64,000 nt of DNA, from positions 15,701-79,700 of the forward strand of contig CAWJKF010000019.1 of assembly GCA_963843335.1 (NCBI GenBank). The letters run 5' to 3'. The position numbers were made by a program, and so were the translations under genes. The DNA is from an uncultured Chloroflexia bacterium (GTDB lineage Bacteria; Chloroflexota; Limnocylindria; Limnocylindrales; CSP1-4). How positions within the stretch are numbered: the stretch's first letter is position 1; the number at the start of each line of letters is the position of its first letter. The notes under the pieces are model-generated. The model was not told the origin of the DNA, made no database searches, and saw only the letters and a program-made list of their open reading frames with translations. Shown here piece after piece: positions 22,806 through 52,115 of this stretch.

Positions 22806-22850
22806 TCTAGGCAGCGGCCCGGGTCGTCTGGTGGGCGTCCCAAAGCGAGC

Positions 22851-25728: not shown

Positions 25729-25741
25729 GGCGCCCGTGTAT

Positions 25742-25753
25742 TGGTCAACCGGT
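25742..25753. promoter_or_regulatory. TGGTCAACCGGT box (copy 1 of 3), followed by the GGTGCACC palindrome, upstream of the transketolase operon
   Basis: The exact 12-mer is shared with 27421-27432 and 52046-52057. On the minus strand it contains TTGACC. Confidence 0.45.
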
Positions 25754-25802
25754 GCACCAGTGTACCACACGGCGACAGCGGCACCCGGACCAGGCGGGCG
25801 TG

Positions 25803-27350: not shown

Positions 27351-27420
27351 CGTGCCTTCCTGTCGCGGGCCCATCGTGCCCTCCTGCGTTTCGGCCGCGC
27401 CAGTCGCTTTGATGGTCCAC

Positions 27421-27449
27421 TGGTCAACCGGTCATCCATTCTGTATGAT
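27421..27449. promoter_or_regulatory. TGGTCAACCGGT box (copy 2) with a plus-strand TATGAT -10 element (27444-27449) in the divergent intergenic region
   Basis: Read directly. The box occupies the -35 position relative to TATGAT (17-nt spacer). Confidence 0.45.
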
Positions 27450-32706: not shown

Positions 32707-33651
32707 CTATCCCCGGTCTGCCAGGTACTGCTCCTGGAGCGCGTTGATGAGCCAGACCATGGCGTCATTGAGGGGCGTCGGGATACCGCTCGCCTGACCC
32801 GCGGCCGTGATCGCGCCATTGATGACGTCGATCTCCGTGCGGCGACCCGCCTCGACATCCTGGAGCATCGACGACCGCCCTCCGATGGCCCGGTCGAGCA
32901 GGCTGGTGATGGCATCCCACCGCTCCGACTCGTCCAGGTCGATGCCGGCTGCCCTGGCCACCGCGGCCACCTCGCCGAGGAGGCCGCGCATCACGGCCCT
33001 GCTGCCCTCGTGGCGGTTGAGCTCGTGCGCCGGGAACCGCAGGAGGGCCGAGGTCGGCAGGGTGCACACGTTGAGCGCGAGCTTCTTCCAGATCTCGTTC
33101 ACGATGGTGGTCGATGTCGCCACCTCGATGCCGGCGTTGGAGAAGGCGGCGGCGACCGCCGCCAGTCGCTCGGTGGCGCTGCCGTCCAGCTCACCGATGT
33201 GCGTGAGTCCGGATCCCGTGTGCTTGACCTGACCGGGACCCGTGAGCGTGGCCGAGTGGTATGTCAGCCCGACGAGCACGCGCTCCAGGCCCGCGACACT
33301 CCCGATCCGATCCGCGTTGCCCCACCCATTCTGGAGGGACAGGATCGCCGTTTCCGGCCCCAGGAGCGGAGCTGCCGATCGGATGGCCGCCTCCGTGTGA
33401 TAGCTCTTGACGACGGACATCACCAGGTCGACCGGACCGACGGAGGCGGGGTCCGACGTCGCACGTACCCGGATCAGTGACTGGCTGCCGTCGGCCTCGG
33501 TGATCGTCAGCGCGCCATCGTTGATGGCTGCGACCGTGTCCGGTCGCACGTCGATGAGGCTCACGTCCAGGCCGGAACGCGCCAGGTAGCCACCCAGGAG
33601 CCCACCCATCGCGCCACCACCGCCCAGCACCGCGACCTTCAGGGATGCCAT
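32707..33651 (-). CDS. 2-dehydropantoate 2-reductase (PanE/ApbA) family oxidoreductase
   Basis: KVAVLGGGGAMGG...VKSYHTE...LQNG.GN...EIWKKLALN...SMLQDVEAGRRTEID. Confidence 0.75.
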   Translation of the reverse strand: MASLKVAVLGGGGAMGGLLGGYLARSGLDVSLIDVRPDTVAAINDGALTITEADGSQSLIRVRATSDPASVGPVDLVMSVVKSYHTEAAIRSAAPLLGPETAILSLQNGWGNADRIGSVAGLERVLVGLTYHSATLTGPGQVKHTGSGLTHIGELDGSATERLAAVAAAFSNAGIEVATSTTIVNEIWKKLALNVCTLPTSALLRFPAHELNRHEGSRAVMRGLLGEVAAVARAAGIDLDESERWDAITSLLDRAIGGRSSMLQDVEAGRRTEIDVINGAITAAGQASGIPTPLNDAMVWLINALQEQYLADRG

Positions 33652-33733
33652 GTCGATACCTCCGTGGATGTGAGCGAGCTGCCGATGGCTCGAGGAAGCG
33701 GGGAAGGGTGCGCCCCGGTGTCGCGAGAGCGCC

Positions 33734-35728
33734 TCATCCCGGGCGCCACTGCAGGCTCGCCACGGCGTAGGCGCTCAGGGACAGGGGTATCGGCGAGGTC
33801 GCGACCGCGTCGTCGCCGGACGCCCGGAAGGCGTCCGGGTGCGCGCTGGCCACACTCACCCTGCCCACATCGAGCATCCGGACGCGCCATCTCCCGGTCG
33901 ACGCCATCCCGGGCCGCAGCAGGACGTCGATGCGATCGCGGGTCAGGTTGGCGACGAGGACGACCGGACCATCCGGCGACGTGGCCGCCAGGGCCGCGAC
34001 CCGGCGGGGGTCGGAGATGACGACGGCCAAGGCCGACCCGCCGCGACACCCCGCGAGGTCCGCCAGCACATGCCACACCGGGTAGATGGCGCCCGGTGTC
34101 GACAGGAAATGGTCGGGTGCGGCGGACCCGTCCCGGCGCTCCATCACGCCTCGCCAGCCGGTCGTCTCATAGAGCGTCACGCTCGTGGCGCCGGATACCA
34201 GCATCCCGGCCAGTGCACCCACCGACCACGCGGCAGTGAACAGCGAGGGCTGGCGGACATCGACCTGGGGCGGCATCCCGCCCGGTCGCTCCCGGCCAGC
34301 CGGCCAGGGACCGTTGACCGTGGCCAGCGTGACCGGCCCGACGCGGACGGGCCGGCCGCCGACGGCATCCGCGGCCGTGCGCACCTGCTGGTCGAGCCCG
34401 AGCAGGTTCTCCATCACGGTCCGGTCATCATCCCGGTGGACGGTCGGTGCGAACGGCACCCCGACCATGCCCAGCGCGGCCGCGTCGACGGGCGCACGGT
34501 TGAGCGCGGCAAGCGTGCCCACCATGGAGCCGACCGGCACGCCCGGCAGGACGCTGGACAGCCGCTCGCGTGCGACCACGACCACCGCCGCCGGCGTCCC
34601 CGAGTCGACCGGACCGTCACCCGGCGCGCGGACCAGGATCGCCTCCAGCAGGTCGCCCAGCGGCGCGAGCAACCCAGCGGCTCGCTCCAGCCCGTCACCG
34701 CCTCGACCTAGGAGTAGCTCGACCTCCAGGCGTGCTCCCACGGCGATCGCGTCGGCCGAGGCCGAGGCCAGCCGGGCCGTCACGTCGGCCGACCCGGCCC
34801 CGCCCGCGTCGACGACGACCCGGAGGTGCCCCGGGTGGAGGCTGGCCACGCGTGCGATCTCGTCGCCGGCCAGCCGCAGCCCATCGCTGGCGACACCCAG
34901 GCCCAGGGTGGGGAGCCGCGACCCCGGCTGATCGCCGATGTCCACGGTCACCATCGCGGCCGCGGACGGTGCCGTCGGGCGGGCCGGCGGTGCACTCGAC
35001 GCATCGGCAGCGAAGCCGATCCTGACCTGCTGGGTGATGCGGTCCCCGGCGACCGCGGCCAGGGGCGCCGGTCGCTGGAGGGGCGTGGAGTAGGTCTTGA
35101 ACGTGGCATCGGCGAAGTTGCGCTGGTCCTCCGTCTCGAACTCGTCACCCGAGCAGTCGAGCGTGACGGTCAGGCCATCGGCGCGGTCGATCTCCAGTCG
35201 CCGGAACGGTTCCAGCATGCCCGTCAGGCGCCCGCCGCGCTCCCGTTGCGGGGCGATATCGACCGGGAACGTCCCCTGGCGCGCGACGCCGTCGTCGCCA
35301 CCGGAGGTGCGATAGGGGCGGCCCGCGAAGTCGCTCACCGAATGCAGGACATTGAAGCCGATCCGGTTGTACCGGAAGTCGTTGGCTGCGACGCCGTCGA
35401 AGGCGTAGCTGATGCTGCCCTCCGGGGTACCGAGGATGATGCCGGCCCACGAGAGGTCCATGCCCGCCCCGATGTTCCGGGCACGGAAGGTCACCCGGAA
35501 GCCGGTCGGGTCCTGGATGATCGACAGGTCATCGACCGCCGCCGGGATGGTGTTCCATGCCTCATCCCGGACGGCCACGAACACCAGGTTGGCCAGCTCG
35601 GCTTCGCCGTGCCGGACATCGCGCAGCTCGATGCCGTCGAGCTCGCAGGTCACAGGCCCCGCGTGGAGCACCTGCGTCGGTGTCGGTGGCGTGCGCCGCC
35701 CCGTCAGCTGGACCTCGGTATCCATCAC
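33734..35728 (-). CDS. Hypothetical protein, 664 aa, uninterrupted, no motif I recognise
   Basis: Single long ORF with strong GC3 bias. ATGA overlap with the upstream aldolase gene, so it is part of the operon. Confidence 0.75.
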   Translation of the reverse strand: MMDTEVQLTGRRTPPTPTQVLHAGPVTCELDGIELRDVRHGEAELANLVFVAVRDEAWNTIPAAVDDLSIIQDPTGFRVTFRARNIGAGMDLSWAGIILGTPEGSISYAFDGVAANDFRYNRIGFNVLHSVSDFAGRPYRTSGGDDGVARQGTFPVDIAPQRERGGRLTGMLEPFRRLEIDRADGLTVTLDCSGDEFETEDQRNFADATFKTYSTPLQRPAPLAAVAGDRITQQVRIGFAADASSAPPARPTAPSAAAMVTVDIGDQPGSRLPTLGLGVASDGLRLAGDEIARVASLHPGHLRVVVDAGGAGSADVTARLASASADAIAVGARLEVELLLGRGGDGLERAAGLLAPLGDLLEAILVRAPGDGPVDSGTPAAVVVVARERLSSVLPGVPVGSMVGTLAALNRAPVDAAALGMVGVPFAPTVHRDDDRTVMENLLGLDQQVRTAADAVGGRPVRVGPVTLATVNGPWPAGRERPGGMPPQVDVRQPSLFTAAWSVGALAGMLVSGATSVTLYETTGWRGVMERRDGSAAPDHFLSTPGAIYPVWHVLADLAGCRGGSALAVVISDPRRVAALAATSPDGPVVLVANLTRDRIDVLLRPGMASTGRWRVRMLDVGRVSVASAHPDAFRASGDDAVATSPIPLSLSAYAVASLQWRPG

Positions 35729-36585
35729 CCACCCGCCCTCTGCGGTGCCCGGTCGAGCAGGCCACGACTGCCGATCCGGTCGATGATCTGCGATGTCGCG
35801 GCGGCGACTGCCTGCCGCGCCCCTGCCAATGTATCCACCAGCTCCTCGCGTCGCTCATCCATCAGCGCTTCCCGGTAGGCAACCCGCAGCGCCGTATTGA
35901 CGTTGACCTTGCAGATGCCGAGGGCGATCGCGGCCTGGAGCTGCACGTCGTCCAGGCCCGACCCGCCGTGCAGCACGAGCGGCACCTCGGTGACGTCCCT
36001 GATCGCCCGCAGCCGGTCCAGATCGAGCGTCGGGGGCGCCGCCGTGGAGCCATGGACGTTGCCGATGCTCACCGCCAGGAGGTCGGCGCCGCTCGTGACC
36101 AGGAAGTCGGCAACGACATCCGGGTCCGTCAGTCGCGCGGTCCGCGCTTCCACGGTCCAGCCGTCCTCGCCCCCCGCCAGCCGGCCCAGCTCTGCCTCCA
36201 CTTCCGATCCGGCCGCGTGCGCCACTGCAGACAGCCCCTGGACGAACCGGGCATTCTCCTGGAGCTCGAGTCGTGAGCCGTCGACCATGACCCCGTCCAG
36301 ACCGCTGGCGACACCGTGGCGGACGATGGCCCCATCCCCGCAGTGATCGAGGTGCACGGCGACAGGCACGGCTGCAGCGTCCGCGAGGACCCGCAGGCCG
36401 GCCACGAGCGGCCACAGCCCATCCCCGGCACCGTCCGGATGGACCTGGAGGATCATCGGTGTGCGCGCGGTCTCGGCAGCCTCGAGCACCCCTGCCGCCT
36501 GGTCGAGCGTGTACACGTTGCAGGCTGCGACGGCACACCCGGCCGCGGACGCCTGGCGCAGCATCGCCGAGAGGCGGCCCTTCAT
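35725..36585 (-). CDS. Class II fructose/tagatose-bisphosphate aldolase-family protein (FbaA/GatY/KbaY-like)
   Basis: AACNVYTLDQAAGVLEAAE..RTPMILQV...VAVHLDHC...VMVDGS...EAELG...AVSIGNVHG...PLVLHGGSG. Confidence 0.8.
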   Translation of the reverse strand: MKGRLSAMLRQASAAGCAVAACNVYTLDQAAGVLEAAETARTPMILQVHPDGAGDGLWPLVAGLRVLADAAAVPVAVHLDHCGDGAIVRHGVASGLDGVMVDGSRLELQENARFVQGLSAVAHAAGSEVEAELGRLAGGEDGWTVEARTARLTDPDVVADFLVTSGADLLAVSIGNVHGSTAAPPTLDLDRLRAIRDVTEVPLVLHGGSGLDDVQLQAAIALGICKVNVNTALRVAYREALMDERREELVDTLAGARQAVAAATSQIIDRIGSRGLLDRAPQRAGG

Positions 36586-38009
36586 GACCCGACCCCGGAC
36601 AATCGGAGGACCGCCTCTCGGAGCGCTTCGGGGCCGCCGACATTCCCCGGGAAGACGCCCAACGGCAGGCCAGGCCAGCGGGATCGGGGACCGCATGACC
36701 AGAGCGGCACACCCGGCAGCAAGGGCCCCACGATCGTCGCTTCGTCGACCTGCAGGCCCGTGGTCGCCACGTCGCTGCTCGTGATGCCGCCCTTGGCGAT
36801 GATCCAGGCCGGCCGCGTCTCGACGCGGCCCACGATGGTGACCAGGGCAGCCGACACGAGTGCCGAGATGTCCAGGTCGGCATCGGCATCGGCACCCCGC
36901 ATCAGCTCCCGGGAGGTCGCCACCACGGGCGTGCGGCCGTCCCGCAACACGGACTCGGCATGCCTCGTGATGGCCATCAGGCGCTGCTCCCGCTCCACCT
37001 CCCCCAACGCGAGCAGCTCGGCCACGGGCAACTCCAGGTGGGTGAGCGGGACAGGCGGATCGGCCAGCAGGCGCTCCAGCTGCGCGGTGGTGGTCGGCAC
37101 ATGGGACCCCACGACCACCAGGCCCGGGAGTCCCCACTGCAGCTCAGCCCGCGACAGTGGCGAGACCGTCGGCCGTCCGGCCCTGGCGCGGACGTACGAG
37201 GCTGCCGTGCGGCCGACGAGCGGCAGGCCCTGGCGCTCCGCGAGCAGGGAGCCGAGTGCCACGACCTCGATGTCCCGTTCGTCCGCCGCGTCCGTGGCGA
37301 GGACACCCGACGGCGGTAGCGCCAGCAGCGCGTCTCGAACGCAGGCGGGACCGTCCGTGCGGATGCGTTCGAGCCCGAGGACCGCGACACTGCGAGCCCG
37401 CGGTTCGTAACCAGACGCCGCAGCAGCCGCCGTTCGCTCCGTGACCCAATCCCGGAGGTCGGACGACCGGTACCCGAAGACCGGGTCGCGAGCGAACTCG
37501 GTCTCCGCGACGGGCGCCAGCCCGTCTGCGCGTCGGAGGTAGTGGATGCCACCGACGGTCAGGCGGCCGCCATCGCCGAAGTAGGGTGCCAGGAGCACCC
37601 GAGCGTCGGACATGCCCATCGCGTCCACGAGGGCATCCAGCTCGAGCGGGAAGTGACCACGGAGGGTCGAGTCGCTCCGGCTCACCACCGCCCAGGCGCG
37701 AGCGGCGCCGACCGCGGAGTCGCGCAATGCCCGCCCGATGGCATCGGCCAGCGTGACCGCATCGCGTGGCGGCAGGCTTCGGCTGTTGGTCAGCAGGAAC
37801 GCGAGCGGCAGGTCGGTGGCCAGGGTCTCCGCCAGCCGCGCGGTGGTCCAGCGCGTGAGGACCGGCACGTCGCGGACCGTCTGGGTGCCGGTCGGGTCAT
37901 CGTCGAGCGCCACCACGAGCGTGGACAGGCCAAGCTCTCGGATCCCCGGCAAGGGGTCCTCGGGCCAGACCGGCAGGGCCAGCAGCTCGTCAACGGCAGA
38001 CGGGCTCAT
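36582..38009 (-). CDS. Four-carbon acid-sugar kinase family protein (DUF1537; OtnK/DtnK/OiaK-like)
   Basis: N-terminus: VVALDDDPTGTQTV...LTNSRS. C-terminus: IIAKGGITSSDVAT...GVFPGNVGGPEAL. Confidence 0.75.
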   Translation of the reverse strand: MSPSAVDELLALPVWPEDPLPGIRELGLSTLVVALDDDPTGTQTVRDVPVLTRWTTARLAETLATDLPLAFLLTNSRSLPPRDAVTLADAIGRALRDSAVGAARAWAVVSRSDSTLRGHFPLELDALVDAMGMSDARVLLAPYFGDGGRLTVGGIHYLRRADGLAPVAETEFARDPVFGYRSSDLRDWVTERTAAAAASGYEPRARSVAVLGLERIRTDGPACVRDALLALPPSGVLATDAADERDIEVVALGSLLAERQGLPLVGRTAASYVRARAGRPTVSPLSRAELQWGLPGLVVVGSHVPTTTAQLERLLADPPVPLTHLELPVAELLALGEVEREQRLMAITRHAESVLRDGRTPVVATSRELMRGADADADLDISALVSAALVTIVGRVETRPAWIIAKGGITSSDVATTGLQVDEATIVGPLLPGVPLWSCGPRSRWPGLPLGVFPGNVGGPEALREAVLRLSGVGS

Positions 38010-38067
38010 GTCGTGCGCGCGATATCCGCGCCCACCCGGTCGGCACCAGCCTGGTAGCGCACGACCC

Positions 38068-39093
38068 TCACGTCCTGATCGCCTCGCCGGATGCGGCTGA
38101 TGTGTAGGCCGCCTCCACCAGGGCCAGGGTGCGCAGATTGTCGGCCGCCGTGGTCTCCGCCTGGTGGGTGCCCCGGATATGGCCCAACAGATCCGTGATG
38201 CAGGGCTCGATGGCCGCCTGTGGCACCGCGTACTGCGGGTCGACCCAGGACCATGCCGGCGGCCCGACGTCCCGGCTCCTGGTGCCGTCCCTGGTCGTGA
38301 CGCGCAGCTCGTGCGGGGCCCGCAGCTCCAGCGTGCCGCCGGTCCCTTCGACGCGGATGAGCAGCTCGGGGAACGGATCGTGTTCCAGCACGGTCGCGAA
38401 CGACATCTCGCAGCTGACCGTCACGTCGTCACCCATCCGGAGCAGGACGGTCGCGACATCCTCGCCCGCGATACCGGGTTGGATGCTCTGGGTCCGCGCT
38501 GTGAGCAGGGACGCTTCGCCGAACAGGAAACGCGCGACGTCCAGGAGGTGGACACCCAGGTCGGCGAGGATCATCCGCGGCAGCTCGCGCAGGAAGGGCT
38601 GCCTGACGAACACTGGGAAGCCGGTCGTGAACTCGAGGCGCGCCCGGAACGGAGCCCCGATGGCTCCGCCGTGGAGCTCGGCAGCGAGCTGGCGCACCGG
38701 GGCCTGCCAGCGGAAGTTCTCGTGGACCAGCAGCGTCACGCCCTTCGCCTCGCAGTAGGCAGCGCTCCGTCGAGCGGTGTCGAGATCGGACGCCAGCGGC
38801 TTCTGGCAGATGACCGCCAGCCCCTGATCGGCCGCCAGCCGGATGAGGTTGGCATGCGTGTCGGGTGCCGTGATGATGTCCACCACATCCAGGCCACCCG
38901 CGGCCAGCATCGCCGCGGGATCGTCGTACACCGCGGGGATACCGAACCGCTGGGCGAGCGCCTGCGCGGGAGCGAGCGACCGGTTGGCGATGGCGACCAC
39001 GCGCGCGTCCTGGTGCTCGGCCCAGCCGGCGAGCTGGTATCCCGCCCAGAACCCCGCGCCGATGACCCCCACGCGGGTGGGCGACGCAGTCAC
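38068..39093 (-). CDS. Gfo/Idh/MocA-family NAD(P)-dependent oxidoreductase
   Basis: RVGVIGAGFWAGYQLAGW...VVAIANR...VICQKPLA...LVHENFRWQ. Confidence 0.85.
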   Translation of the reverse strand: MTASPTRVGVIGAGFWAGYQLAGWAEHQDARVVAIANRSLAPAQALAQRFGIPAVYDDPAAMLAAGGLDVVDIITAPDTHANLIRLAADQGLAVICQKPLASDLDTARRSAAYCEAKGVTLLVHENFRWQAPVRQLAAELHGGAIGAPFRARLEFTTGFPVFVRQPFLRELPRMILADLGVHLLDVARFLFGEASLLTARTQSIQPGIAGEDVATVLLRMGDDVTVSCEMSFATVLEHDPFPELLIRVEGTGGTLELRAPHELRVTTRDGTRSRDVGPPAWSWVDPQYAVPQAAIEPCITDLLGHIRGTHQAETTAADNLRTLALVEAAYTSAASGEAIRT

Positions 39094-39890
39094 GCCGCCG
39101 TTTCCTCCACCCGATGATCGTCGCCGTCGATGACCAGCACCTGGTTCGGCTGGAGGGCGATCGGCACGCGCTGGCCGGTCGTGTCGCGCTCCCTGACGGC
39201 CGCCAGGAACCTGGCCACGTCGGCATCGGCAAGCCGGGTCGCATCGTAGTGACTCGCGATGGCGTACTTGACACCCAGTAGCTCGGCCGCGATCGCGGCC
39301 TCCTCCGGGTCCATCTCTCCGGTCACGACCTGGCCGGCCCCCGTGTAGACGCTGGGCAGCAGGTCATACGGCTGGGCGCAGCCCATCAGGCCAACGGTCG
39401 GCCGGTGCAGCTCTCCGATGAAGCGCATGTCACCAAAGACCGCGGTGTCCCCGGAGTGGTAGATCCGAACGCCCGGCTCCGTCTCCACGATGAAGCTCAA
39501 CGGGAAGCCGGGGACCCTGAATTCGTCCCTGAGCGTCGTGCCCGCCCAATGCTGGCACTGGACCGGCCGGATGAGCAGATCGCCGATCTGGATCTTGATG
39601 CCCCACATGGTGCGGCGGACCTGCGCGGCTGGCACCCCTCGTTCCATCAGGAGCAGCTCGCTGTCCGCCCCGCAGACCACGGAGGCGCCCGTCCGGATGG
39701 CGATCTCCGCGGTGTCGCCGAGGTGGTCGATGGGCGGGTGGCTGACCAGGATGACGTCCGGCGCCTCCAGGTCATCCGGGCCGCAGGGTGCCGTGCTGGA
39801 ACCCGTCAGGAACGGGTCGAAGAGGATGCGGTGCCGCGGGCCCACGACCTCGAACGCGGCCGTACCCAGGAATCGGATGCGCGTGGTCAC
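39090..39890 (-). CDS. MBL-fold metallo-hydrolase
   Basis: IRFLGTAAFEV....ILFDPF...VILVSHPPIDHLGD...HSGDT beta-lactamase-fold motifs. Confidence 0.7.
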   Translation of the reverse strand: MTTRIRFLGTAAFEVVGPRHRILFDPFLTGSSTAPCGPDDLEAPDVILVSHPPIDHLGDTAEIAIRTGASVVCGADSELLLMERGVPAAQVRRTMWGIKIQIGDLLIRPVQCQHWAGTTLRDEFRVPGFPLSFIVETEPGVRIYHSGDTAVFGDMRFIGELHRPTVGLMGCAQPYDLLPSVYTGAGQVVTGEMDPEEAAIAAELLGVKYAIASHYDATRLADADVARFLAAVRERDTTGQRVPIALQPNQVLVIDGDDHRVEETAA

Positions 39891-40870
39891 GTACGTATCT
39901 CCCTGCGACTCCCGTCGCGTGTGGCCATCGCGCGACGGGCAGCCGCGGCGATGTCCTCTGGCTGCATCCCGTGATGGGTGAACAGGTCATTGATGCCACC
40001 GCTGTCCACCCAGCGGTCGCGAACGCCGATGCGCTCGACCGGCACCGGCCGACGCTCGGACAACACCTCCGTCACGGCCGCGCCGAAGCCGCCCAGGATG
40101 GTGGCGTTCTCGGCGGTCACCGCGCAGCCGGTGCGGGTCGTGGAGCTGACGATGAGCGCTGCATCGATGGGCTTGATGGATGCGAGGTGGACGACCTCCG
40201 CACGGATGCCGTCGGTCGCGAGCAGGTCGGCTGCCCGGACACACAGGCTGGTCATGACGCCCGTTCCGAAGAGGGTGACATCGGTGCCCTCCCGGATGGT
40301 CTCGCCGCGCCCCCACTCGAAGGAGTGGCCGGGTGCGAACAGGTCATCGACCGTGAGCCGGGTGACCCGGAAGTAGACCGGGCCGGGCGTGGCCATGGCC
40401 GTGCGCATGATCGCCCGCATGTCCGCGTTGTCTCCCGGATCCGCGACACGCATGTTCGGCAGCGCGCGCATGACCGCGATGTCCTCGATGCAGTTGTGGG
40501 ACGCACCAGCGCGACTGGTCGGTAGCCCAACGTACGAGCCGGGGATCTTCACGTTCAACGCGGGATAGCAGATGGAGATGGCGATCTGATCGAGTGCCCG
40601 ACGGGCCGCGAACACGGCGAACGTCGAGGGCACGGGCAGGAAGCCCTCGAGGGCGAGCCCGGCGGCGATGCCGAACAGGTCCTGCTCTGCGATCCCCACC
40701 TGGATGAACCGCGTCGGGAACGCGGCCTTGAACTTGTCGGCCTTGGAGGAGGTGTTGAGATCCGCGTCCAGCACGATCATGCGCGGCAGCTCCTGGCCGA
40801 GCTCCACGAGCGCGTTCCCGAAGGCGTCGCGCATCTCGAGCGTCATTCCGCCCGACTCATTCGCCGCCAT
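39887..40870 (-). CDS. Transketolase, C-terminal subunit (second copy)
   Basis: FPTRFIQVGIAEQDLFGIAAGLALEGFLP...ASHNCIEDIAVMRALPNM. Confidence 0.85.
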   Translation of the reverse strand: MAANESGGMTLEMRDAFGNALVELGQELPRMIVLDADLNTSSKADKFKAAFPTRFIQVGIAEQDLFGIAAGLALEGFLPVPSTFAVFAARRALDQIAISICYPALNVKIPGSYVGLPTSRAGASHNCIEDIAVMRALPNMRVADPGDNADMRAIMRTAMATPGPVYFRVTRLTVDDLFAPGHSFEWGRGETIREGTDVTLFGTGVMTSLCVRAADLLATDGIRAEVVHLASIKPIDAALIVSSTTRTGCAVTAENATILGGFGAAVTEVLSERRPVPVERIGVRDRWVDSGGINDLFTHHGMQPEDIAAAARRAMATRDGSRREIRT

Positions 40871-41775
40871 AGAAGACCTCCTTGGCCACCGGGTCGTTCA
40901 GGCGGGAGTAGCCCTCATCGGGATAGCCATAGTGTCGTGCCAGCTCGCGGAGCATCCGGTCCGCCATCGGCCCGTCGGGCGCGTGCGTGTGCCACTTGGG
41001 GTTGAACTCCGCGATGTCGACACCCTTGCCCTTGACCGTGTGGGCGACGATCACGATGGGCTGTCCATGGGGCAGGATCCAGCGGGCCCGATGGAAGGCG
41101 TCCGCCACCTCGTCGATATCGTGGCCGTCGACCTCCACCACCTCCCAGCCGAAGGCGCGCCACTTGTCAGCGAACGGCTCGACGCCCATCTGGTCGTGGG
41201 TGAATCCTTTGGCCATGACCTTGTTGTAGTCCACGACCGCGATGAGGTTGTCCAGCCGGTAGTGCGCGGCGGCCATCGCCGCCTCCCACACGTTGCCCTC
41301 GTTGGACTCGCCGTCACCCAGGATGCAGAACACGCGTGCGCGCGGGTCGAGCTTGTAACGCAGGCCAAGCGCGCGCCCGACGGCCACGGACAGCCCCATC
41401 CCCAGGGGACCGCCGGACGACTCCAGGCCTGGGGTCCGGAGCATGTCCGTGTGTCCCTCGAGCCGCCCGCCCAGCTCGCAGTAGCTGTACACGTCCGACT
41501 CCGGGAAGTAGCCGGCCAGTGCCAGCGCCGCGTACAGACCCGGTGACCCGTGCGCCTTGGACAGGATGAGCCGGTCCCGGCCCTCCCACGTGGGGTCATC
41601 CGGGCGTACCGACATGTGGTGGAAGTACAGGACGGCCAGCAGCTCTGCCATCGAGAACGAGCCGCCGATGTGACCCCATTGGGCCCAGGTCGATCATCTC
41701 CACCGAGAGCCGCCGGATGCGATAGGCCATATCCGCGATGTGTCCACGCTCGTCGACGGACAGATGCTCGCTCAT
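40857..41775 (-). pseudogene. Transketolase, N-terminal subunit (second copy), one frameshift near 41685
   Basis: MSEHLSVDERGHIADMAYRIRRLSVEMIDL | QWGHIGGSFSMAELLAVLYFHHM...SKAHGSPGLYA...GPLGMGLSVAVG...ILGDGESNEGNVWE. GGAGG RBS before the ATG at 41775. Confidence 0.8.
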
Positions 41776-43371
41776 GAACCTGCCTCCGCACCCGCCGGTG
41801 ATTTCGGCGTTGATCCGGAGCCACCAGTCACCTGCGGCCGGCGTGGTGAACTCGCCTCCGTCCGACTGCACTGACTGTTCCTGCCCGTTCGCCGCATCGA
41901 TCCACGCGGCGATGGATGCCTGCGGCAGCTGCTCCTGTCGGAGCGATACCGACCGGTCTTCGGGTATGTAGACCACGACCAGATCTCCCTCCGGGCTGCG
42001 TGCTGCGGCGATGTGGCGACGGCCACCAGGCTGCGCCGCCACCAGCTCCGGTGCCGGCACGAGCCGCCACCAGTCGATGGCCTCCAGGAGTCGGACCATA
42101 TGCCCGAGTCCCTCGGCACCGGGCATCAGCACCGCCTGCCGCCAGGCCATCGGTACGCCGGTCCCGGGATGGTTCAGCGGCTCGTGGGTACCGTCGCCCC
42201 AGTCCCACACCCCGTGGCCGCCGTACGTCACACCCGCCATCGGGGACACCAGCAGGGACCAGGCCAGGCGCTTGCGCACGTCGGCCGCCGAGAACGGTCG
42301 CTTGCTCTGGTAGGCCACGTGGCCCTCATAGGGCGGCTCAAGGTTGACGATCGGACGGGACCGAAGCTGCTGCCAGCCGGTCGCCGGCGGTCCCTCGACC
42401 AGCCAGCGCACGGTCGCCTCGTCGTCACCGTGGCCACTCTGGTAGCCCAGGAAGTCCAGCCAATCCTGATCGTCGAATTCCGGTCCGTACCACTGCATGC
42501 CGTTGGGATGCAGGGTCACCGGTGCGTGATCGACCGAGGCGAACACCTCGGCGCCGATGCGGCGCCACTTCTGCGCATGGGCGCCCGTGTACGGACCGTC
42601 GCCCGGCAGGATCCAGGCGACCGGGTACGCGTCCCAGCGCGCCACCATGTAGCGCGCCAGCAGCACCGCCTGGTCGTCGGGCAGGGCATACCCCGGGTTC
42701 ATGTCATTGACCGCCGGGTCGTCCCTGGTCCACTCGGCGGCCCAGAGGAGCACGGGCACACCCAGCAGCCCCGCCCGGGCAAGCGCCGCGACCTTGCCGT
42801 CTAGCCGGCGGAAGAACTCGGGGTCGATGGAGATCCGGTCGGTGCCCGTGAACGGCGCACGTCCATCCAGGTCGCCCGTGGCGACCAGCCAGCTCGTGGC
42901 CACCCACTGGACGGCGCTGAAGGACTGGCGCGTACGCTGGGCAACGTACCAGGCCCACTCCTCGTCGGTCGACAGCATCGGCCCATTCCAGGCCGTGTCA
43001 CCGATCCACAAGAACGGCGTGCCGTCGAGATGCGCGAAGTGGCGGCCCGAGTCGGCCACGCGGATGGGGCCGTGCCGATCGAAGCGGGAATCGCCCGCGG
43101 GGTCTCCCGCGGTCAGTGTCAGGACCTGGTCATGCAGGCCGTTGTCCGGTTGCCCCTCTACGCTCGTGACGCCGCGCCACTCACCGATCTCGTCGGGGGC
43201 GAAGCGGACACGCCAGGTATCGCCGCCGTCCCAGAACCCGTACACGCGACGAGACCGGCCCGTGGGTGACGTGAAGGTCGCGCGCAGCACGTGATCATGG
43301 ATCGAAGCACTACCGGTGTGCTCCGAATGCAGCTCGAACTCGACGGGCTGCCATACCGGGACCTGTGGCAC
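41772..43371 (-). CDS. DUF5060 + DUF4038-type glycoside hydrolase (GH140-like, apiosidase family); 3' end uncertain
   Basis: VEFEL....VYGFWDGGDTWRVRF (DUF5060-like), then GTPFLWIGDTAWNG...QWVATSW...LLWAAEW...LGYQSGH. In the main frame the ORF runs straight into the transketolase start. An ATGA-overlapping stop at 41772 exists in another frame. Confidence 0.6.
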
Positions 43372-43413
43372 GGTTTCCTCTCAGAGCGGGTGCAGGCCCG
43401 CGCGATACGCAGT

Positions 43414-43454
43414 TGGTATGCGGCATACCACCACATTGGTTGACCAATTGTCAA
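43414..43454. promoter_or_regulatory. Operator/promoter module (copy d): 17-bp perfect palindrome TGGTATGC-G-GCATACCA, palindrome ATTGGT-TG-ACCAAT, then a TTGACA box on the minus strand
   Basis: Read directly. About 45 bp align with the modules at 44286-44324 and 46761-46799. Confidence 0.55.
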
Positions 43455-45922: not shown

Positions 45923-46678
45923 TCATGCCTCCGACTCTGCAGCGATGGCATGCTGCAGTGTCTCTCGCAATTCGTCCATGTGCCTGTCCATCGTGTGCCG
46001 TGCCAGCTTCGGGTCACCAGACAGGACGGCCTCGTACACCGCCCGGTGGTGGGTGAGGCTTCGGCGCGGCGTCCCCGGGATCCGCAGACCCAGCACGCGC
46101 ACCTCCAGCATCAGCTGGGCGAGCGAGTCGAGGATGATGGAGAACAACTCGTTGTGGGTCGCCGCGGCGAGTGCCTGGTGAAAGGCCACGTCCTCCTTGA
46201 CGAACGCATCCGGGTCGTCGAGATGGGACTCGGCCGCGGCCAGGATCCCCTCGAGGACAGCAAGGTCATTCCGTGTCCGGCGGGCTGCGGCCAGGGCTGC
46301 GATCTCGGTCTCCAGCACCCGCCGTACCTCCGTCACCTTCTCGGCGTCAGAGCTGCTGGACTGCACCCGCAGCAACAGTCCCATCGACTCCGCCGCGGCG
46401 ACGGCGGACGGTGCCCGGACCACGGTGCCTCGTCCACCCTCGACCTCCACCAGGCGACGCGCCGCCAGCGCCCGAACCGCCTCGCGGATCACGGTGCGAC
46501 TGACACCGAACTGGCTGGCCAGCTCGCGTTCGGACGGGAGCCGATCACCCTCTCCCAGGCGGCTCTCGACGATCAGCCGCTCCAGCTCCACCACCACCCG
46601 ATTGGCCAGCGTCTCCTCGCGGGCCAACTCCGAGACCAGTCGCGGCGGATCAGTCCTCGCCGGCACGTTGGTGTCCAT
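45923..46678 (-). CDS. GntR-family (FadR subfamily) transcriptional regulator (third copy)
   Basis: GDRLPSERELASQFGVSRTVIREAVRALAARRLVEVEGGRGTVV plus an FCD-like C-terminal domain. Confidence 0.85.
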   Translation of the reverse strand: MDTNVPARTDPPRLVSELAREETLANRVVVELERLIVESRLGEGDRLPSERELASQFGVSRTVIREAVRALAARRLVEVEGGRGTVVRAPSAVAAAESMGLLLRVQSSSSDAEKVTEVRRVLETEIAALAAARRTRNDLAVLEGILAAAESHLDDPDAFVKEDVAFHQALAAATHNELFSIILDSLAQLMLEVRVLGLRIPGTPRRSLTHHRAVYEAVLSGDPKLARHTMDRHMDELRETLQHAIAAESEA

Positions 46679-46760
46679 GTGTGGAGCCTACTCCGTTCGA
46701 TGCTGGATCATGCCTGGGCTGTCATCCTCAGCGCCCTGCGCGGGCAGCGCGCGACCGCGT

Positions 46761-46799
46761 GGCATGCGGCATACCATCATGGATATGGCACGGTGTCAA
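46761..46799. promoter_or_regulatory. Operator/promoter module (copy f): GGCATGCGGCATACC ... TGTCAA, between GntR (minus strand) and a Zn-ADH gene (plus strand)
   Basis: Aligns with copies d and e. Confidence 0.5.
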
Positions 46800-46839
46800 G
46801 TCCGCTGTGTCGATGTCGCAGCTAGGAGCGAACGCAACG

Positions 46840-47865
46840 ATGAGACGATTGGTGACCCTCGCGCCCGGGCGCGTGGAACTCCAGGATGGGCCGGAGCCCG
46901 TCGTCGGGCCGGACGAAGCCCTGATCGCGGTGGAAGCTGTCGGCATCTGCGGATCGGACGTCCACCTGTTCACCGGCGAGCATCCCTATTCCCATTTCCC
47001 AAACGTGCAGGGCCATGAGTTCGCGGGGCGCGTCGTGTCACTGCCTGCCTCGTACCGCGGGCCGGCCGGGGTAGGGGACCGGGTCGCCATCGAGCCGTTG
47101 CTGATGTGCGGCGAGTGCCTGCCGTGTCGCAGGGGCCGGGGCAACTGCTGCCTGCGGATGCGGACCTACGGTGCGCAGATCGACGGCGGGCTCGCTGAGC
47201 GGATCGCGGTCAAGGCATCGTTGCTGTACCCCACAGGCGACCTGTCGGCCGAGCTGGCCGCCCTGGTGGAGCCGATGTCCATCGGCTTGCAGGCGACCGC
47301 CCGCAGTGGCATGACCGCGTCGGACACGGTCCTGGTATTCGGAGCCGGACCGATCGGGCAGGCGATCCTGCTGGCGGCTGCGGATATGGGAGCCCGGGTC
47401 ATGGTCGTGGACCGCATCGCGGCCCGCCTCCAGCTGGCGCGACGTCTGGGCGCTGACGCGGTCCTGGATGCCAGCACCGACGACACGCGGGATGCCGTGC
47501 TGGCCTGGACCGACGGGGACGGGCCGACGGTGGTGTTCGAGGCGACCGGAGTCCCCGCGGTGGTGGAGGGCGCCATCGACCTCGTGGCCAGCTCCGGGAC
47601 AGTGGTGGTCGTTGGCCTGTCGCGTCAGAACGTCGCGGTCCCGATGGTCGACCTGACCCGCAAGGAGCTGACCATCGTCGGGTCACGCAACAACATGGGC
47701 CAGTTCGGTCGGGCCGTGAGCCTGGTCCAGCGCCAGCCGGATCGGGTCGGACTGCTCATCAGTCACCGGTTCCCGCTTGAGCGTGCCCCGGAGGCCTTCG
47801 AGCTGGCCCACTCGTCGCCGCAGGTCACCGAGAAGATCATCATCGAGGTCGGCACGGGCGCGTGA
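46840..47865 (+). CDS. Zinc-dependent medium-chain dehydrogenase (sorbitol / L-idonate dehydrogenase-like)
   Basis: GICGSDVHLF.GEHP......GHEFAGRVV...CGECLPCRRGRGNCC...GAGPIGQ. AGGAG RBS. Confidence 0.85.
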   Translation: MRRLVTLAPGRVELQDGPEPVVGPDEALIAVEAVGICGSDVHLFTGEHPYSHFPNVQGHEFAGRVVSLPASYRGPAGVGDRVAIEPLLMCGECLPCRRGRGNCCLRMRTYGAQIDGGLAERIAVKASLLYPTGDLSAELAALVEPMSIGLQATARSGMTASDTVLVFGAGPIGQAILLAAADMGARVMVVDRIAARLQLARRLGADAVLDASTDDTRDAVLAWTDGDGPTVVFEATGVPAVVEGAIDLVASSGTVVVVGLSRQNVAVPMVDLTRKELTIVGSRNNMGQFGRAVSLVQRQPDRVGLLISHRFPLERAPEAFELAHSSPQVTEKIIIEVGTGA

Positions 47866-49149: not shown

Positions 49150-49268
49150 AGTGATCCTCCATCGGGGTGCGTGTGGATGGTCCGTCCGCCGGACAGGTCA
49201 GGCGCTGGTCGATAGGCGCTCCCTCACGACAGGTGCGCGCAGGCGGATGGGTGGAGGAGATGACCGCA

Positions 49269-51867: not shown

Positions 51868-52023
51868 GGGACGAGGGCCTCGGACAGGACGCGCTCACCA
51901 CGAACGTCTGCCCCTGATGATCCGCTCACGCTTGCCACCGAACTCATCCGTCACCCTCCCGGGTCCTTGTCGACGCTCGGCTCGTGTCCTGCGAAGGCCC
52001 TGATCGGCCTGCTCGTTGGTTGC

Positions 52024-52065
52024 AGTATGGCATCAGCGACGGCAGTGGTCAACCGGTGTACCGGT
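52024..52065 (-). promoter_or_regulatory. Promoter TTGACC-17 nt-CATACT for the ABC operon, overlapped by TGGTCAACCGGT box copy 3 and ACCGGT-GT-ACCGGT
   Basis: -35 at 52052-52047 and -10 at 52029-52024 on the minus strand. The box spans 52046-52057. Confidence 0.5.
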
Positions 52066-52115
52066 CCATCTCCTACCATCTGCTGGCGATCCGTCACCGG
52101 CAGTACCGCGCTGTG

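What the first reader, a model, noticed from the sequence alone, without database searches (positions are those of the whole stretch)
32707..43454. Eleven-kb coupled operon resembling, but not matching, known D-apiose/D-apionate and tetronate pathways
The minus-strand order has nearly every junction overlapping:
1. GH140-like hydrolase (DUF5060 + DUF4038; the characterised family member is an apiosidase acting on rhamnogalacturonan-II)
2. Split transketolase N and C subunits
3. MBL-fold hydrolase
4. Gfo/Idh/MocA oxidoreductase
5. DUF1537 acid-sugar kinase
6. Class II FBP/tagatose-BP-type aldolase
7. 664-aa unknown protein
8. PanE-type ketoacid reductase

Published work on D-apiose catabolism describes two relevant routes. 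One is a transketolase route that uses a split transketolase. The others are oxidative routes via apionate that use a DUF1537 kinase and then RuBisCO-like proteins for the C-C chemistry.

Here the two toolkits are merged and no RuBisCO-like protein is present. A class II aldolase of the FbaA family sits next to the kinase instead. This is not the FucA-type decarboxylase of the tetronate pathways. PanE normally reduces a branched 2-oxo acid, which would suit a branched-chain sugar acid.

The combination suggests an undescribed variant route for a plant-cell-wall branched or acid sugar.
Basis: partly seen in the sequence, partly recalled or inferred. Interest (0 to 1): 0.7.

Follow-up and report, generated by a model that had tools for sequence, protein, structure and literature searches.

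The report
Apiose-sugar operon with unusual lower pathway
This is a bacterial operon for taking up and oxidising the plant cell-wall sugar D-apiose; its first steps match the known route, but its later steps use a conserved, uncharacterised enzyme set instead of the published RuBisCO-like enzymes.

Summary
All nine genes are present on the minus strand, 32707-43371, and six of eight junctions overlap.

The "664-aa unknown" is not unknown. It belongs to the D-apionate lactonase (ApnL) family. The Gfo/Idh/MocA gene groups with proteins that JGI names D-apiose dehydrogenase. The hydrolase is GH140-like and has no obvious signal peptide. Apioside import, apiose release and oxidation to D-apionate are therefore well supported.

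The published next steps are ApnO, OiaK and a RuBisCO-like or xylose-isomerase-fold decarboxylase. They are absent from all 64 kb. In their place sit a PanE-type dehydrogenase with intact catalytic residues, a DUF1537 kinase outside the OiaK, OtnK and DtnK models, a class II aldolase-family protein, an MBL hydrolase and a split transketolase.

- A DUF1537 + PF01116 pair is already a characterised tetronate module (2-OtnK/2-OtnC, Guo 2024).
- Limnocylindrales relatives carry ApnO-OiaK-RLP beside the same cluster.
- The transketolase N gene is frameshifted, and the GH140 ORF reads into it. Both are most likely long-read indels.
- Two operator motifs link this operon to the ABC transporter and to a second transketolase cluster.

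Verdict: a new variant of a known pathway. The chemistry of the lower half is unresolved.

The parts
43414..43448 (-). Promoter/operator region upstream of the GH140 gene. It holds the palindrome TGGTATGCCGCATACCA (43414-43430) and ATTGGTCAACCAAT (43435-43448), which overlaps a TTGACA box.
   Evidence: Sequence read. Motif enrichment. Both motifs are conserved upstream of GH140 in L085, and the palindrome also in L086.
41772..43371 (-). GH140-like (apiosidase-family) glycoside hydrolase with an N-terminal DUF5060 domain and no obvious signal peptide by eye. As sequenced, the ORF runs on to 41596 because the expected TGA at 41774-41772 is out of frame by one nucleotide.
   Evidence: Pfam PF13204 1.4e-63 and PF16586 8.3e-18. 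PDB 8T9W 'Apiosidase' 1.2e-27 and 3KZS/5MSY 5e-20. Junction analysis.
40857..41775 (-). Split transketolase, N-terminal (ThDP-binding) subunit. It is interrupted by a 1-nt insertion at about 41688-41691.
   Evidence: Three-frame translation. 92% identity to the intact L001 gene on both sides of the shift. Comparison with L003.
39887..40870 (-). Split transketolase, C-terminal (pyrimidine-binding plus C) subunit.
   Evidence: Pfam PF02779 and PF02780. 86% identical to L001. 34% identical to E. coli AptB.
39090..39890 (-). MBL-fold metal-dependent hydrolase (PRK00685/UPF0173-like). Possibly a second lactonase.
   Evidence: Pfam Lactamase_B_2 5.4e-21. NCBIfam NF001911 134 bits, below its cut-off of 144. 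Lies beside PanE in 7 of 8 PanE-containing ApnL loci.
38068..39093 (-). Gfo/Idh/MocA oxidoreductase, a probable D-apiose 1-dehydrogenase (ApsD-like).
   Evidence: Pfam. Homologues at 52-76% identity are named 'D-apiose dehydrogenase' by JGI. Relatives at 48-53% identity sit in canonical ApnL-ApnO-OiaK-RLP loci.
36582..38009 (-). DUF1537 family kinase, long form (475 aa). It is not OiaK, OtnK or DtnK. Its substrate is inferred to be an oxidised apionate derivative.
   Evidence: Pfam SBD_N and NBD_C. NCBIfam gives only DtnK 50.6 bits and OtnK 30.7 bits, with no OiaK hit. The clade is large and its genomic contexts vary.
35725..36585 (-). Class II aldolase-family protein (PF01116), 2-OtnC-like. 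Its start overlaps the kinase stop (ATGA) and its stop overlaps the ApnL start (GTGA).
   Evidence: Pfam 4.8e-75. All NCBIfam hits fall below their cut-offs. 44-52% identical to FBA proteins in FAH-kinase-FBA modules, against 33-39% to those in LtnD-kinase-FBA modules.
33734..35728 (-). ApnL-family lactonase (D-apionolactonase-like).
   Evidence: NCBIfam NF049900 E = 1.3e-62, 212 bits, residues 6-602 against model positions 3-591 of 595, below the 750-bit equivalog cut-off. PF25837/8/9 and JGI names.
32707..33651 (-). PanE/ApbA-family 2-hydroxyacid/2-oxoacid oxidoreductase. Proposed to oxidise D-apionate at C2.
   Evidence: Pfam. TIGR00745 255 bits, but below every equivalog cut-off. The residues aligning with E. 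coli KPR N98, K176, N180, S244 and E256 are invariant.
45923..46687 (-). GntR/FCD-family regulator. The palindrome TGGTATGCCGCATGCCA lies in its own upstream region (46760-46776).
   Evidence: Pfam. Motif search.
46681..47865 (+). Zn-dependent polyol/sugar dehydrogenase, divergent from the GntR gene. The start codon is uncertain.
   Evidence: Pfam and NCBIfam. Homologues at 38-49% identity lie in other ApnL loci. An ADH also sits next to PanE on the P0009 contig.
48136..51894 (-). ABC importer: ATPase (50295-51894, frameshift near 51200), permease (49269-50298, frameshift near 49827) and the Peripla_BP_4 solute-binding protein (48136-49149).
   Evidence: Pfam. 87-97% identity to intact L001 genes on both sides of each shift.
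52046..52130 (-). Upstream region of the ABC operon. It carries both operator motifs: TGGTCAACC (52046-52054) and TGGTATGCCACATGCCA (52114-52130).
21313..27432 (-). Probable co-regulated second module: Asp/Glu racemase, xylose-isomerase-like TIM, split transketolase 2 (N and C), a second TIM, and two GntR genes. TGGTCAACC lies about 50 nt upstream of the racemase start (27421-27429).
   Evidence: Pfam. L054 has the homologous TK2(65%)-TIM-TIM-racemase-GntR set in one operon with ApnO and ApnL. Motif search.

Best explanation
The operon is part of a GntR-controlled island for using D-apiose or apiosides. The host is probably a high-GC Chloroflexota (Limnocylindria-like) bacterium.

Upper pathway, assigned by homology plus conserved context:
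1. The ABC system (48136-51894) imports an apioside or free apiose.
2. The GH140-like hydrolase, which has no obvious signal peptide, releases D-apiose.
3. The Gfo/Idh/MocA enzyme (ApsD-like) oxidises apiose to D-apionolactone.
4. The 664-aa ApnL-family lactonase opens the lactone to D-apionate. The MBL hydrolase may act on a second lactone.

Lower pathway, inferred. The published trio (ApnO oxidoisomerase, OiaK kinase, RuBisCO-like decarboxylase) appears to be replaced:
1. The PanE-type dehydrogenase oxidises C2 of D-apionate, which is a close analogue of pantoate, to 2-oxo-apionate. It may also isomerise it.
2. The long DUF1537 kinase phosphorylates a terminal CH2OH group.
3. The class II aldolase-family protein, a relative of the tetronate enzyme 2-OtnC, does the metal-dependent C-C chemistry (decarboxylation and/or retro-aldol) that leads to DHAP.
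4. The split transketolase either cleaves the C2-C3 bond of the branched keto compound or handles a C1, C2 or C4 by-product such as formaldehyde, glycolaldehyde or L-erythrulose.

The individual lower-pathway reactions are guesses. The gene-to-pathway association is what the data support.
For: Upper pathway:
- GH140: Pfam 1.4e-63; PDB apiosidases 8T9W and 5MSY.
- Gfo homologues are named D-apiose dehydrogenase. A Gfo of this type lies in 20 of 80 ApnL loci.
- ApnL model hit over the full length, with family names and domains.

Cluster conservation: L001-L003, L005, L085 and L086.

Lower pathway:
- No ApnO, OiaK, RLP or FAH in the 64 kb. The kinase does not match the OiaK model, whereas the relative's second DUF1537 does, at 416 bits.
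- PanE keeps the residues that align with the KPR catalytic residues.
- PanE+MBL(+FAH) recur next to ApnL in Gaiellales, Thermoleophilia and Opitutus loci without ApnO.
- L106 packs MBL-FAH-kinase-FBA-PanE into 4.6 kb. L009 places kinase-FBA beside ApnL-PanE-MBL-FAH.
- Precedent for a DUF1537 + PF01116 pair acting as kinase and decarboxylase on a 2-oxo acid sugar comes from PMC12540250 and PMC12994016.

Co-regulation: two operator motifs are shared by the GH140, ABC, GntR and TK2 promoters. Counts are 4 sites against 0.04 expected and 4 against 0.23 expected. Both are conserved upstream of GH140 in L085, and the palindrome also in L086.
Against: - Limnocylindrales relatives (L001, L005; 59-94% identical gene by gene) carry ApnO-OiaK-RLP beside the same cluster. 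The extra genes are therefore not simply substitutes there, and this genome could hold the canonical genes outside the window.
- The ApnL-like protein scores 212 bits against a 750-bit equivalog cut-off. In a rough NJ tree it falls among family members with non-canonical neighbours, so its substrate could differ.
- C3 of apionate is fully substituted. A 2-OtnC-type enediol isomerisation therefore cannot run as it does for tetronates.
- The FAH gene found in the closest relative L085 and in L001 is missing here.
- The kinase's nearest relatives at 46-60% identity sit in varied contexts.
- TK-N and the GH140 3' end are out of frame as sequenced.
- The Carter 2018 paper itself could not be read. 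Its content is taken from memory and from secondary sources.
Confidence: 0.5

Rival explanations
1. Canonical pathway elsewhere, accessory module here. The organism degrades D-apionate with ApnO-OiaK-RLP or a TIM decarboxylase encoded outside this window. The PanE, kinase, aldolase, MBL and transketolase genes would then process something else. Candidates are a tetronate (as in the 3-step 2-OtnK/2-OtnC route), the C4 product L-erythrulose or its 1-phosphate, or the second moiety of the imported apioside.
For: - L001-L003 and L005 hold both gene sets side by side.
- LtnD-kinase-FBA modules (FBA 33-39% identical) show that the pair works on tetronates.
- L094 has TK-kinase-FBA with no ApnL after it.
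- FAH-kinase-FBA occurs with no ApnL within reach in L109 and L111.
Against: - No canonical gene lies within 64 kb here, nor within 21 kb in the closest relative L085.
- There is no LtnD-type dehydrogenase next to the pair. The window FBA is closer to the ApnL-linked class (44-52%) than to the tetronate class.
- The kinase/aldolase and aldolase/ApnL junctions overlap by 4 bp each, which suggests translational coupling.
Confidence: 0.3
2. Different sugar. The ApnL-like lactonase, the GH140-like hydrolase and the dehydrogenase act on another furanose or branched sugar and its lactone. The whole island would then be a pathway for that sugar rather than for apiose.
For: - The ApnL hit is far below the equivalog cut-off.
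- Many ApnL-family loci have neighbours unrelated to known apiose enzymes, such as 2-Hacid_dh + HpcH aldolase + 3HCDH + SDR.
- The window protein falls in the non-canonical half of the NJ tree.
- Only a few GH140 members have been characterised.
Against: - Three independent apiose-linked families sit in one operon: GH140, ApsD-like Gfo and ApnL.
- The Gfo is 48-53% identical to those in canonical ApnO-OiaK-RLP loci.
- Limnocylindrales relatives of the cluster place OiaK and an OiaX-like RLP beside the same transporter.
Confidence: 0.12
3. Decaying locus. The frameshifts in TK-N, at the GH140 end, and in the ABC permease and ATPase are real, and the operon is a non-functional remnant.
For: - There are at least four frame disruptions between 41.6 and 51.2 kb.
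- A degraded second permease lies at 43460-44050.
- FAH is missing relative to L085.
Against: - The disrupted genes are 87-97% identical to intact orthologues on both sides of each shift.
- Related contigs from ENA samples ERZ250394xx-ERZ250395xx, with 'contig_N' names, are riddled with split genes. This is typical of long-read indel errors.
- Frameshifts also hit unrelated genes in the window, such as E1 alpha and beta.
Confidence: 0.08

Closest known systems
Oxidative D-apiose/D-apionate pathways (Carter et al. 2018, Nat Chem Biol 14:696): ApsD, ApnL, ApnO, OiaK, then an RLP decarboxylase, an RLP transcarboxylase/hydrolase or a xylose-isomerase-family decarboxylase
   Same: - An ABC solute-binding protein lies nearby, under the same operator motifs, 4.8 kb upstream.
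- A Gfo/Idh/MocA dehydrogenase of the ApsD type is present.
- An ApnL-family lactonase is present.
- A DUF1537 kinase follows an NAD(P)-dependent oxidation.
   Different: - The window has no ApnO (PGDH_C/F420_oxidored-like; PDB 5T57), no OiaK-type kinase, and no RLP.
- A PanE-family enzyme, a different DUF1537 clade and a PF01116 protein stand in their place.
- A split transketolase and an MBL hydrolase are added.
- The pathway details from Carter 2018 are recalled from memory and from secondary sources. The paper itself was not held.
Three-step L-threonate/D-erythronate route (Guo et al. 2024, BBRC 695:149440): LtnD/DenD, 2-oxo-tetronate kinase (DUF1537), 2-oxo-tetronate-4-P decarboxylase (F_bP_aldolase family)
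   Same: - An adjacent DUF1537 kinase and PF01116 protein.
- A dehydrogenase in the same cluster that makes a 2-oxo acid.
- DHAP as the likely end product.
   Different: - The dehydrogenase is PanE-family, not a beta-hydroxyacid dehydrogenase.
- The FBA is only 33-39% identical to those in LtnD-kinase-FBA loci.
- The cluster is embedded in apiose genes.
- The branched substrate has no C3-H, so the same chemistry cannot apply unchanged.
Non-oxidative D-apiose pathway (ApsI, AplK, AptA/AptB), as in Pectobacterium and E. coli ST131 (PMC13001218)
   Same: A split transketolase encoded near a sugar ABC transporter.
   Different: - There is no FGGY apulose kinase and no ApsI.
- The transketolase subunits are 34-41% identical to E. 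coli SE15 AptA/AptB. That is no more than the window's unrelated second transketolase.
GH140 beta-D-apiosidase BT1012 of Bacteroides thetaiotaomicron (RG-II degradation)
   Same: The same catalytic-domain family: PF13204, with a PDB 3KZS/5MSY match at 5e-20.
   Different: - It has an N-terminal DUF5060 domain and no obvious signal peptide, and it sits in a monosaccharide-catabolism operon rather than a PUL.
- Sequence identity is low.
- Catalytic residues were not checked.

Membership tests
GH140 (apiosidase family) | Catalytic domain matching PF13204/DUF4038, with similarity to solved apiosidases | tested here: met
   PF13204 215.9 bits against a cut-off of 26.5. 8T9W 1.2e-27 and 3KZS/5MSY 5.1e-20.
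GH140 (apiosidase family) | Hydrolysis of beta-D-apiofuranosyl linkages, with conserved catalytic acids | not tested
   Catalytic residues were not mapped. Activity needs an enzyme assay.
ApnL, D-apionate lactonase (EC 3.1.1.115) | Full-length match to the ApnL model and the three Apionate_lact domains | tested here: met
   NF049900 E = 1.3e-62 over residues 6-602. The identical database protein P0001 carries PF25837/8/9.
ApnL, D-apionate lactonase (EC 3.1.1.115) | Score above the NCBIfam equivalog cut-off, meaning the same function can be assumed | tested here: not met
   212 bits against a cut-off of 750. The protein falls in the non-canonical half of the family tree.
ApsD, D-apiose 1-dehydrogenase (EC 1.1.1.420) | Gfo/Idh/MocA protein co-located with ApnL and orthologous to annotated ApsD | tested here: met
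   Pfam. JGI names on homologues at 52-76% identity. Relatives at 48-53% identity lie in canonical loci. The JGI names are automatic annotations, not assays.
Canonical apionate lower pathway | ApnO oxidoisomerase present | tested here: not met
   tblastn with the L001 ApnO-like protein found nothing in the window. The PanE-like protein does not match PDB 5T57 at E <= 1.
Canonical apionate lower pathway | OiaK-type DUF1537 kinase | tested here: not met
   The window kinase has no NF042436 hit at E <= 1e-3. The L001 paralogue scores 416 bits.
Canonical apionate lower pathway | RuBisCO-like protein, or xylose-isomerase-fold decarboxylase, in the operon | tested here: not met
   No RLP in the 64 kb. 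Two TIM-barrel genes exist, but in the separate TK2 cluster at 22851-26688.
Non-oxidative apiose pathway (AptAB) | FGGY apulose kinase and apiose isomerase next to the transketolase | tested here: not met
   E. coli AplK gives no hit in the window.
Non-oxidative apiose pathway (AptAB) | Transketolase orthologous to AptA/AptB | tested here: inconclusive
   41% and 34% identity for TK1, 36% and 37% for TK2. No tree with outgroups was made.
Three-step tetronate route (2-OtnK/2-OtnC) | Adjacent DUF1537 kinase and F_bP_aldolase-family protein | tested here: met
Three-step tetronate route (2-OtnK/2-OtnC) | LtnD/DenD-type (NAD_binding_2) dehydrogenase in the cluster, and close similarity to such clusters | tested here: not met
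   No E. coli LtnD homologue was found in the window. The window FBA is 33-39% identical to LtnD-linked FBAs, against 44-52% to FAH-linked ones.
PanE/ApbA ketopantoate reductase family | Both Pfam domains present, and catalytic Lys176/Glu256 plus substrate-binding Asn98, Asn180 and Ser244 conserved | tested here: met
   The residue roles are from my knowledge of E. coli KPR.
PanE/ApbA ketopantoate reductase family | Being the pantothenate-biosynthetic enzyme itself | tested here: inconclusive
   It passes the TIGR00745 subfamily cut-off but falls below all equivalog cut-offs. Its operon context is catabolic.

The most novel reading that the evidence does not exclude
This would be a fifth route for D-apiose catabolism. 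In it, D-apionate is oxidised at C2 by a PanE-family dehydrogenase and phosphorylated by a new DUF1537 clade. The branched carbon skeleton is then taken apart without any RuBisCO-like enzyme, by a class II aldolase-family enzyme and/or a ThDP-dependent split transketolase. Possible outcomes are DHAP + CO2 + a C1 unit, or DHAP + a glyoxylate-level C2 unit. The module (PanE, MBL, FAH, kinase, FBA) would be widespread in soil Chloroflexota and Actinomycetota.
Probability: 0.35. Interest if true: 0.7.

Novelty: new variant of a known kind. Interest (0 to 1): 0.55.

Why it matters
D-apiose occurs in the cell-wall pectins of higher plants (rhamnogalacturonan-II, apiogalacturonan) and in many plant glycosides. 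Its known bacterial routes were worked out mainly in Proteobacteria and gut bacteria.

The ApnL family turns up in hundreds of soil and sediment MAGs. Only about a fifth of the 80 loci examined have a recognisable canonical lower pathway beside it. A conserved PanE, MBL, FAH, DUF1537 and class II aldolase set next to ApnL points to at least one uncharacterised way of dismantling a branched five-carbon acid.

If confirmed, it would give new functions to large unassigned clades of DUF1537, PF01116 and PanE proteins. It would also improve carbon-cycling annotation for Chloroflexota and Actinomycetota.

Tried and rejected
- GH140-transketolase fusion protein. The window ORF and an 836-aa gene call in L086 suggested a fusion. 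I rejected it. In L003, and in the correct frame of L086, the hydrolase ends with a TGA that overlaps the TK-N start. The window has 40 nt rather than 39 nt before that TGA, and L086's 'fusion' passes through a garbled stretch.
- PanE-like enzyme as a disguised ApnO. It gives no sequence match to 5T57. The two may share only the Rossmann/6PGDH-type fold. I did not run a profile-profile comparison.
- Identifying the kinase's substrate from close homologues. Contexts at 46-60% identity are too varied to help.
- Ligand of the solute-binding protein from PDB relatives. Only generic sugar-binding proteins came up.
- Promoter and terminator scan. It was uninformative in this high-GC DNA.
- Finding the source contig by exact protein look-up. 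Nothing was on record.
- Reading the primary papers. Carter 2018 and Zhang 2016 are not held. One literature search was swamped by OCR noise.
- Anti-correlation of PanE and ApnO in ApnL loci. The numbers are too small for a meaningful test: 8 loci against 13-15, with overlap in one lineage only.

Full report
**Observation**

The window is about 70% G+C. On the minus strand between 32707 and 43371 there are nine consecutive genes.

- GH140-like hydrolase: PF13204 'Apiosidase' 1.4e-63, plus DUF5060.
- Split transketolase N and C subunits.
- MBL-fold hydrolase.
- Gfo/Idh/MocA oxidoreductase.
- DUF1537 kinase: SBD_N and NBD_C.
- PF01116 class II aldolase: 4.8e-75.
- A 664-aa protein with no hit in the local Pfam copy.
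- A PanE/ApbA reductase.

Six of the eight junctions overlap. They are ATGA or GTGA overlaps, or 14 bp. Two junctions are short gaps of 58 and 82 bp.

The same order recurs on independent metagenomic and MAG contigs: L001-L003, L005, L085 and L086. The cluster is therefore real and conserved.

**Sequence quality**

TK-N is broken by a one-nucleotide insertion near 41688-41691. Its first 30 or so codons lie in the frame of the GH140 ORF and the rest lie in another frame.

The GH140 ORF has no stop before the TK-N ATG at 41775. In L003, and in the correct frame of L086, the hydrolase ends with a TGA that overlaps the TK-N start. The window is one nucleotide longer in the last 40 nt.

The ABC permease and ATPase are also split, near 49827 and 51200. 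Even so, they are 87-97% identical to intact orthologues on both sides of each break. Unrelated genes such as E1 alpha and beta are split too.

The nearest relatives come from ENA assemblies with 'contig_N' names, and their genes are fragmented throughout.

I conclude that these are long-read indel errors rather than pseudogenes or a real GH140-transketolase fusion. This needs resequencing to settle.

**Upper pathway**

The '664-aa unknown' matches NCBIfam NF049900, D-apionate lactonase ApnL. The match has E = 1.3e-62 and covers residues 6-602 against model positions 3-591 of 595. At 212 bits it is below the 750-bit equivalog cut-off.

The identical database protein carries the newer Pfam domains Apionate_lact_N, M and C. 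Many homologues are named D-apionolactonase by JGI.

Homologues of the Gfo/Idh/MocA protein at 52-76% identity are named D-apiose dehydrogenase. Relatives at 48-53% identity sit in canonical ApnL-ApnO-OiaK-RLP loci.

The hydrolase matches solved apiosidases: 8T9W at 1.2e-27, and 3KZS/5MSY (BT1012) at 5e-20. Its N-terminus shows no obvious signal peptide by eye.

A Peripla_BP_4 ABC importer lies upstream.

Import of an apioside or of apiose, intracellular release of apiose, oxidation to the lactone and hydrolysis to D-apionate are therefore well supported by homology and context. None of these steps has been shown biochemically.

**Lower pathway**

The published routes continue with ApnO (PDB 5T57; a PGDH_C/F420_oxidored-like protein) and OiaK. 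They finish with a RuBisCO-like decarboxylase or transcarboxylase, or a xylose-isomerase-family decarboxylase. This description comes from Carter 2018, recalled from memory and supported. The paper itself was not held.

None of these enzymes is in the 64-kb window.

The window kinase gives only 50.6 bits to DtnK and 30.7 bits to OtnK, and has no OiaK hit. A second DUF1537 in the relative L001 scores 416 bits to OiaK, and its RLP scores 482 bits to the OiaX model.

The PanE-like protein does not match 5T57. It does keep the residues that align with the ketopantoate-reductase catalytic and substrate-binding residues N98, K176, N180, S244 and E256.

D-apionate is 2,3,4-trihydroxy-3-hydroxymethylbutanoate. 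It is a close analogue of pantoate, so oxidation at C2 by this enzyme is chemically reasonable. This is an inference.

A DUF1537 kinase next to a PF01116 protein is already a characterised module. In the three-step L-threonate/D-erythronate route, 2-oxo-tetronate kinase and 2-oxo-tetronate-4-phosphate decarboxylase yield DHAP, and the decarboxylase has an F_bP_aldolase domain. This is Guo et al. 2024, as described in PMC12540250 and PMC12994016.

A metagenome scan with the window aldolase found two context classes:
- LtnD-kinase-FBA loci, with FBA 33-39% identical. These fit the tetronate route.
- FAH-kinase-FBA loci, with FBA 44-52% identical. PanE and MBL flank them in L106, which carries MBL-FAH-kinase-FBA-PanE on 4.6 kb.

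The window protein belongs with the second class.

**Genome-neighbourhood analysis**

I fetched 80 ApnL-family loci from species-representative genomes. I clustered their neighbouring ORFs and named the clusters with Pfam. Four recurring contexts emerged:
- Gfo + ApnO + OiaK + RLP, in 7-8 loci.
- Gfo + ApnO + xylose-isomerase-like TIM, in 7-10 loci.
- PanE + MBL, with or without FAH, an NAD-dependent epimerase-family protein, 3HCDH and SDR, in 8-9 loci. These are mostly Gaiellales and Thermoleophilia, plus one Opitutus.
- 2-Hacid_dh + HpcH aldolase, in 10-11 loci, overlapping the third type.

PanE+MBL lies with ApnO only in the Limnocylindrales lineage. That lineage has both sets: L005 and L001-L003, in the order TK-N, TK-C, MBL, Gfo, FAH, kinase, FBA, ApnL | GntR | PanE, ABC | ApnO, OiaK, RLP.

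The closest relative of the window is L085, whose kinase is 82% identical. It has the same order plus FAH, with PanE after ApnL, and shows no canonical genes in 21 kb. L086 lacks both FAH and PanE. A JGI contig carries PanE-ADH | MBL-FAH-kinase(59%)-ApnL.

The association of ApnL with PanE, MBL, FAH, a DUF1537 kinase and often a PF01116 protein is therefore conserved across phyla. To my knowledge it has not been characterised.

**Limits on the mechanism**

C3 of apionate carries no hydrogen. The enediol isomerisation presumed for 2-OtnC cannot operate on it.

I can see three possible solutions:
- Hydroxymethyl migration, as in ApnO or KARI.
- Retro-aldol loss of formaldehyde, leading into tetronate-type chemistry.
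- ThDP-dependent C2-C3 cleavage by the transketolase, releasing DHA(P).

I could not discriminate between these.

The transketolase subunits are only 34-41% identical to E. coli SE15 AptA/AptB. These were retrieved using PMC13001218. No apulose kinase is present. 'Merged toolkits' is therefore not demonstrated.

The kinase's wider clade is large, and its contexts are mixed.

**Regulation and extent**

Upstream of GH140 lie two motifs: TGGTATGCCGCATACCA and ATTGGTCAACCAAT.

The first motif recurs at 44285, at 46760 (the GntR/Zn-ADH divergent region) and at 52114 (upstream of the ABC operon). That is 4 sites against 0.04 expected.

The core of the second motif, TGGTCAACC, recurs at 52046, at 27421 and at 25742. 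That is 4 sites against 0.23 expected. The site at 27421 lies about 50 nt upstream of the racemase gene that heads a second cluster.

Both motifs are conserved upstream of GH140 in L085, and the palindrome also in L086.

The second cluster runs racemase, TIM, TK-N2, TK-C2, TIM, GntR, GntR at 21313-27432. A homologue in Caldilineaceae L054 is operonic with ApnO and ApnL.

**Verdict**

The apiose interpretation is strengthened for the upper pathway. The 'undescribed variant' idea is plausible for the lower pathway but unproven. It is weakened by the presence of canonical genes next to the same cluster in relatives.

I rate it a new variant of a known kind, with interest 0.55.

Noticed in passing
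window 21313-27432 (minus strand): A second split-transketolase cluster: Asp/Glu racemase, xylose-isomerase-like TIM, TK-N2, TK-C2, a second TIM (31% identical to E. coli OtnI), and two GntR/FCD regulators. In Caldilineaceae L054 the homologous set (TK 65%, racemase 52% identical) is in one operon with ApnO and ApnL. Transketolases may therefore be a regular, undescribed part of oxidative apionate catabolism.
   Followed up: partly
window 43414-43448, 44285-44301, 46760-46776, 52046-52130, 27421-27429, 25742-25750: Two putative GntR-type operator motifs, TGGTATGCNGCATRCCA and TGGTCAACC, are strongly over-represented. They lie upstream of the GH140 operon, the ABC operon, the GntR/Zn-ADH pair and the TK2 cluster. 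Both are conserved upstream of GH140 in L085, and the palindrome also in L086.
   Followed up: partly
window 41688-41691, 41775-41812, ~49827, ~51200, 28349-30220, 44019-45688: Many genes are split by single-nucleotide frame changes while staying 87-97% identical to intact orthologues. This fits an unpolished long-read assembly. Any ORF-based reading of this window needs that caveat.
   Followed up: partly
window 34000-38000 versus 40000-50000: The similarity to Limnocylindrales L001 is mosaic. TK-N, TK-C, MBL, the SBP, the permease and the ATPase are 86-97% identical. ApnL, FBA and the kinase are only 59-69% identical. The less similar block has higher G+C (72.4% against about 67%). This suggests recombination or block replacement inside the operon.
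   Followed up: no
window 43460-44050 (minus) and 44019-45688 (plus): Between GH140 and the GntR gene lie a degraded second ABC permease (40-54% identity, in three frames) and a frameshifted NAD-dependent epimerase/dehydratase-family gene. They look like remnants of an older arrangement.
   Followed up: no
window 27514-32677 (plus strand): A cluster resembling an acetoin or 2-oxoacid dehydrogenase: an unknown protein, E1 alpha, E1 beta, a lipoyl-domain protein, an SDR and a Zn-ADH. It is transcribed divergently from the TK2 cluster across the region that holds a TGGTCAACC site, and it converges on the PanE gene. It may belong to the same island.
   Followed up: no
L009, L013, L017, L040, L052, L074 (Actinomycetota MAGs): Around an ApnL-family lactonase lies a large conserved island with no Gfo and no GH140 gene: SDR, PanE, MBL, FAH, HpcH aldolase, 3HCDH, 2-Hacid_dh, an epimerase-family protein and GntR, with FAH-kinase-FBA nearby. 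It is probably an uncharacterised sugar-acid pathway in its own right.
   Followed up: partly
protein P0248: A 594-aa protein with Gfo/Idh/MocA and FAA_hydrolase domains, 74% identical to the window Gfo. It is either a real fusion of the two adjacent genes or another read-through artefact.
   Followed up: no
window 12679-21163 (minus strand): A run of aromatic amino-acid biosynthesis genes lies downstream of the island: DAHP synthase, EPSP synthase, chorismate synthase, shikimate dehydrogenase, type II dehydroquinase and anthranilate synthase component I. It is ordinary housekeeping context.
   Followed up: no
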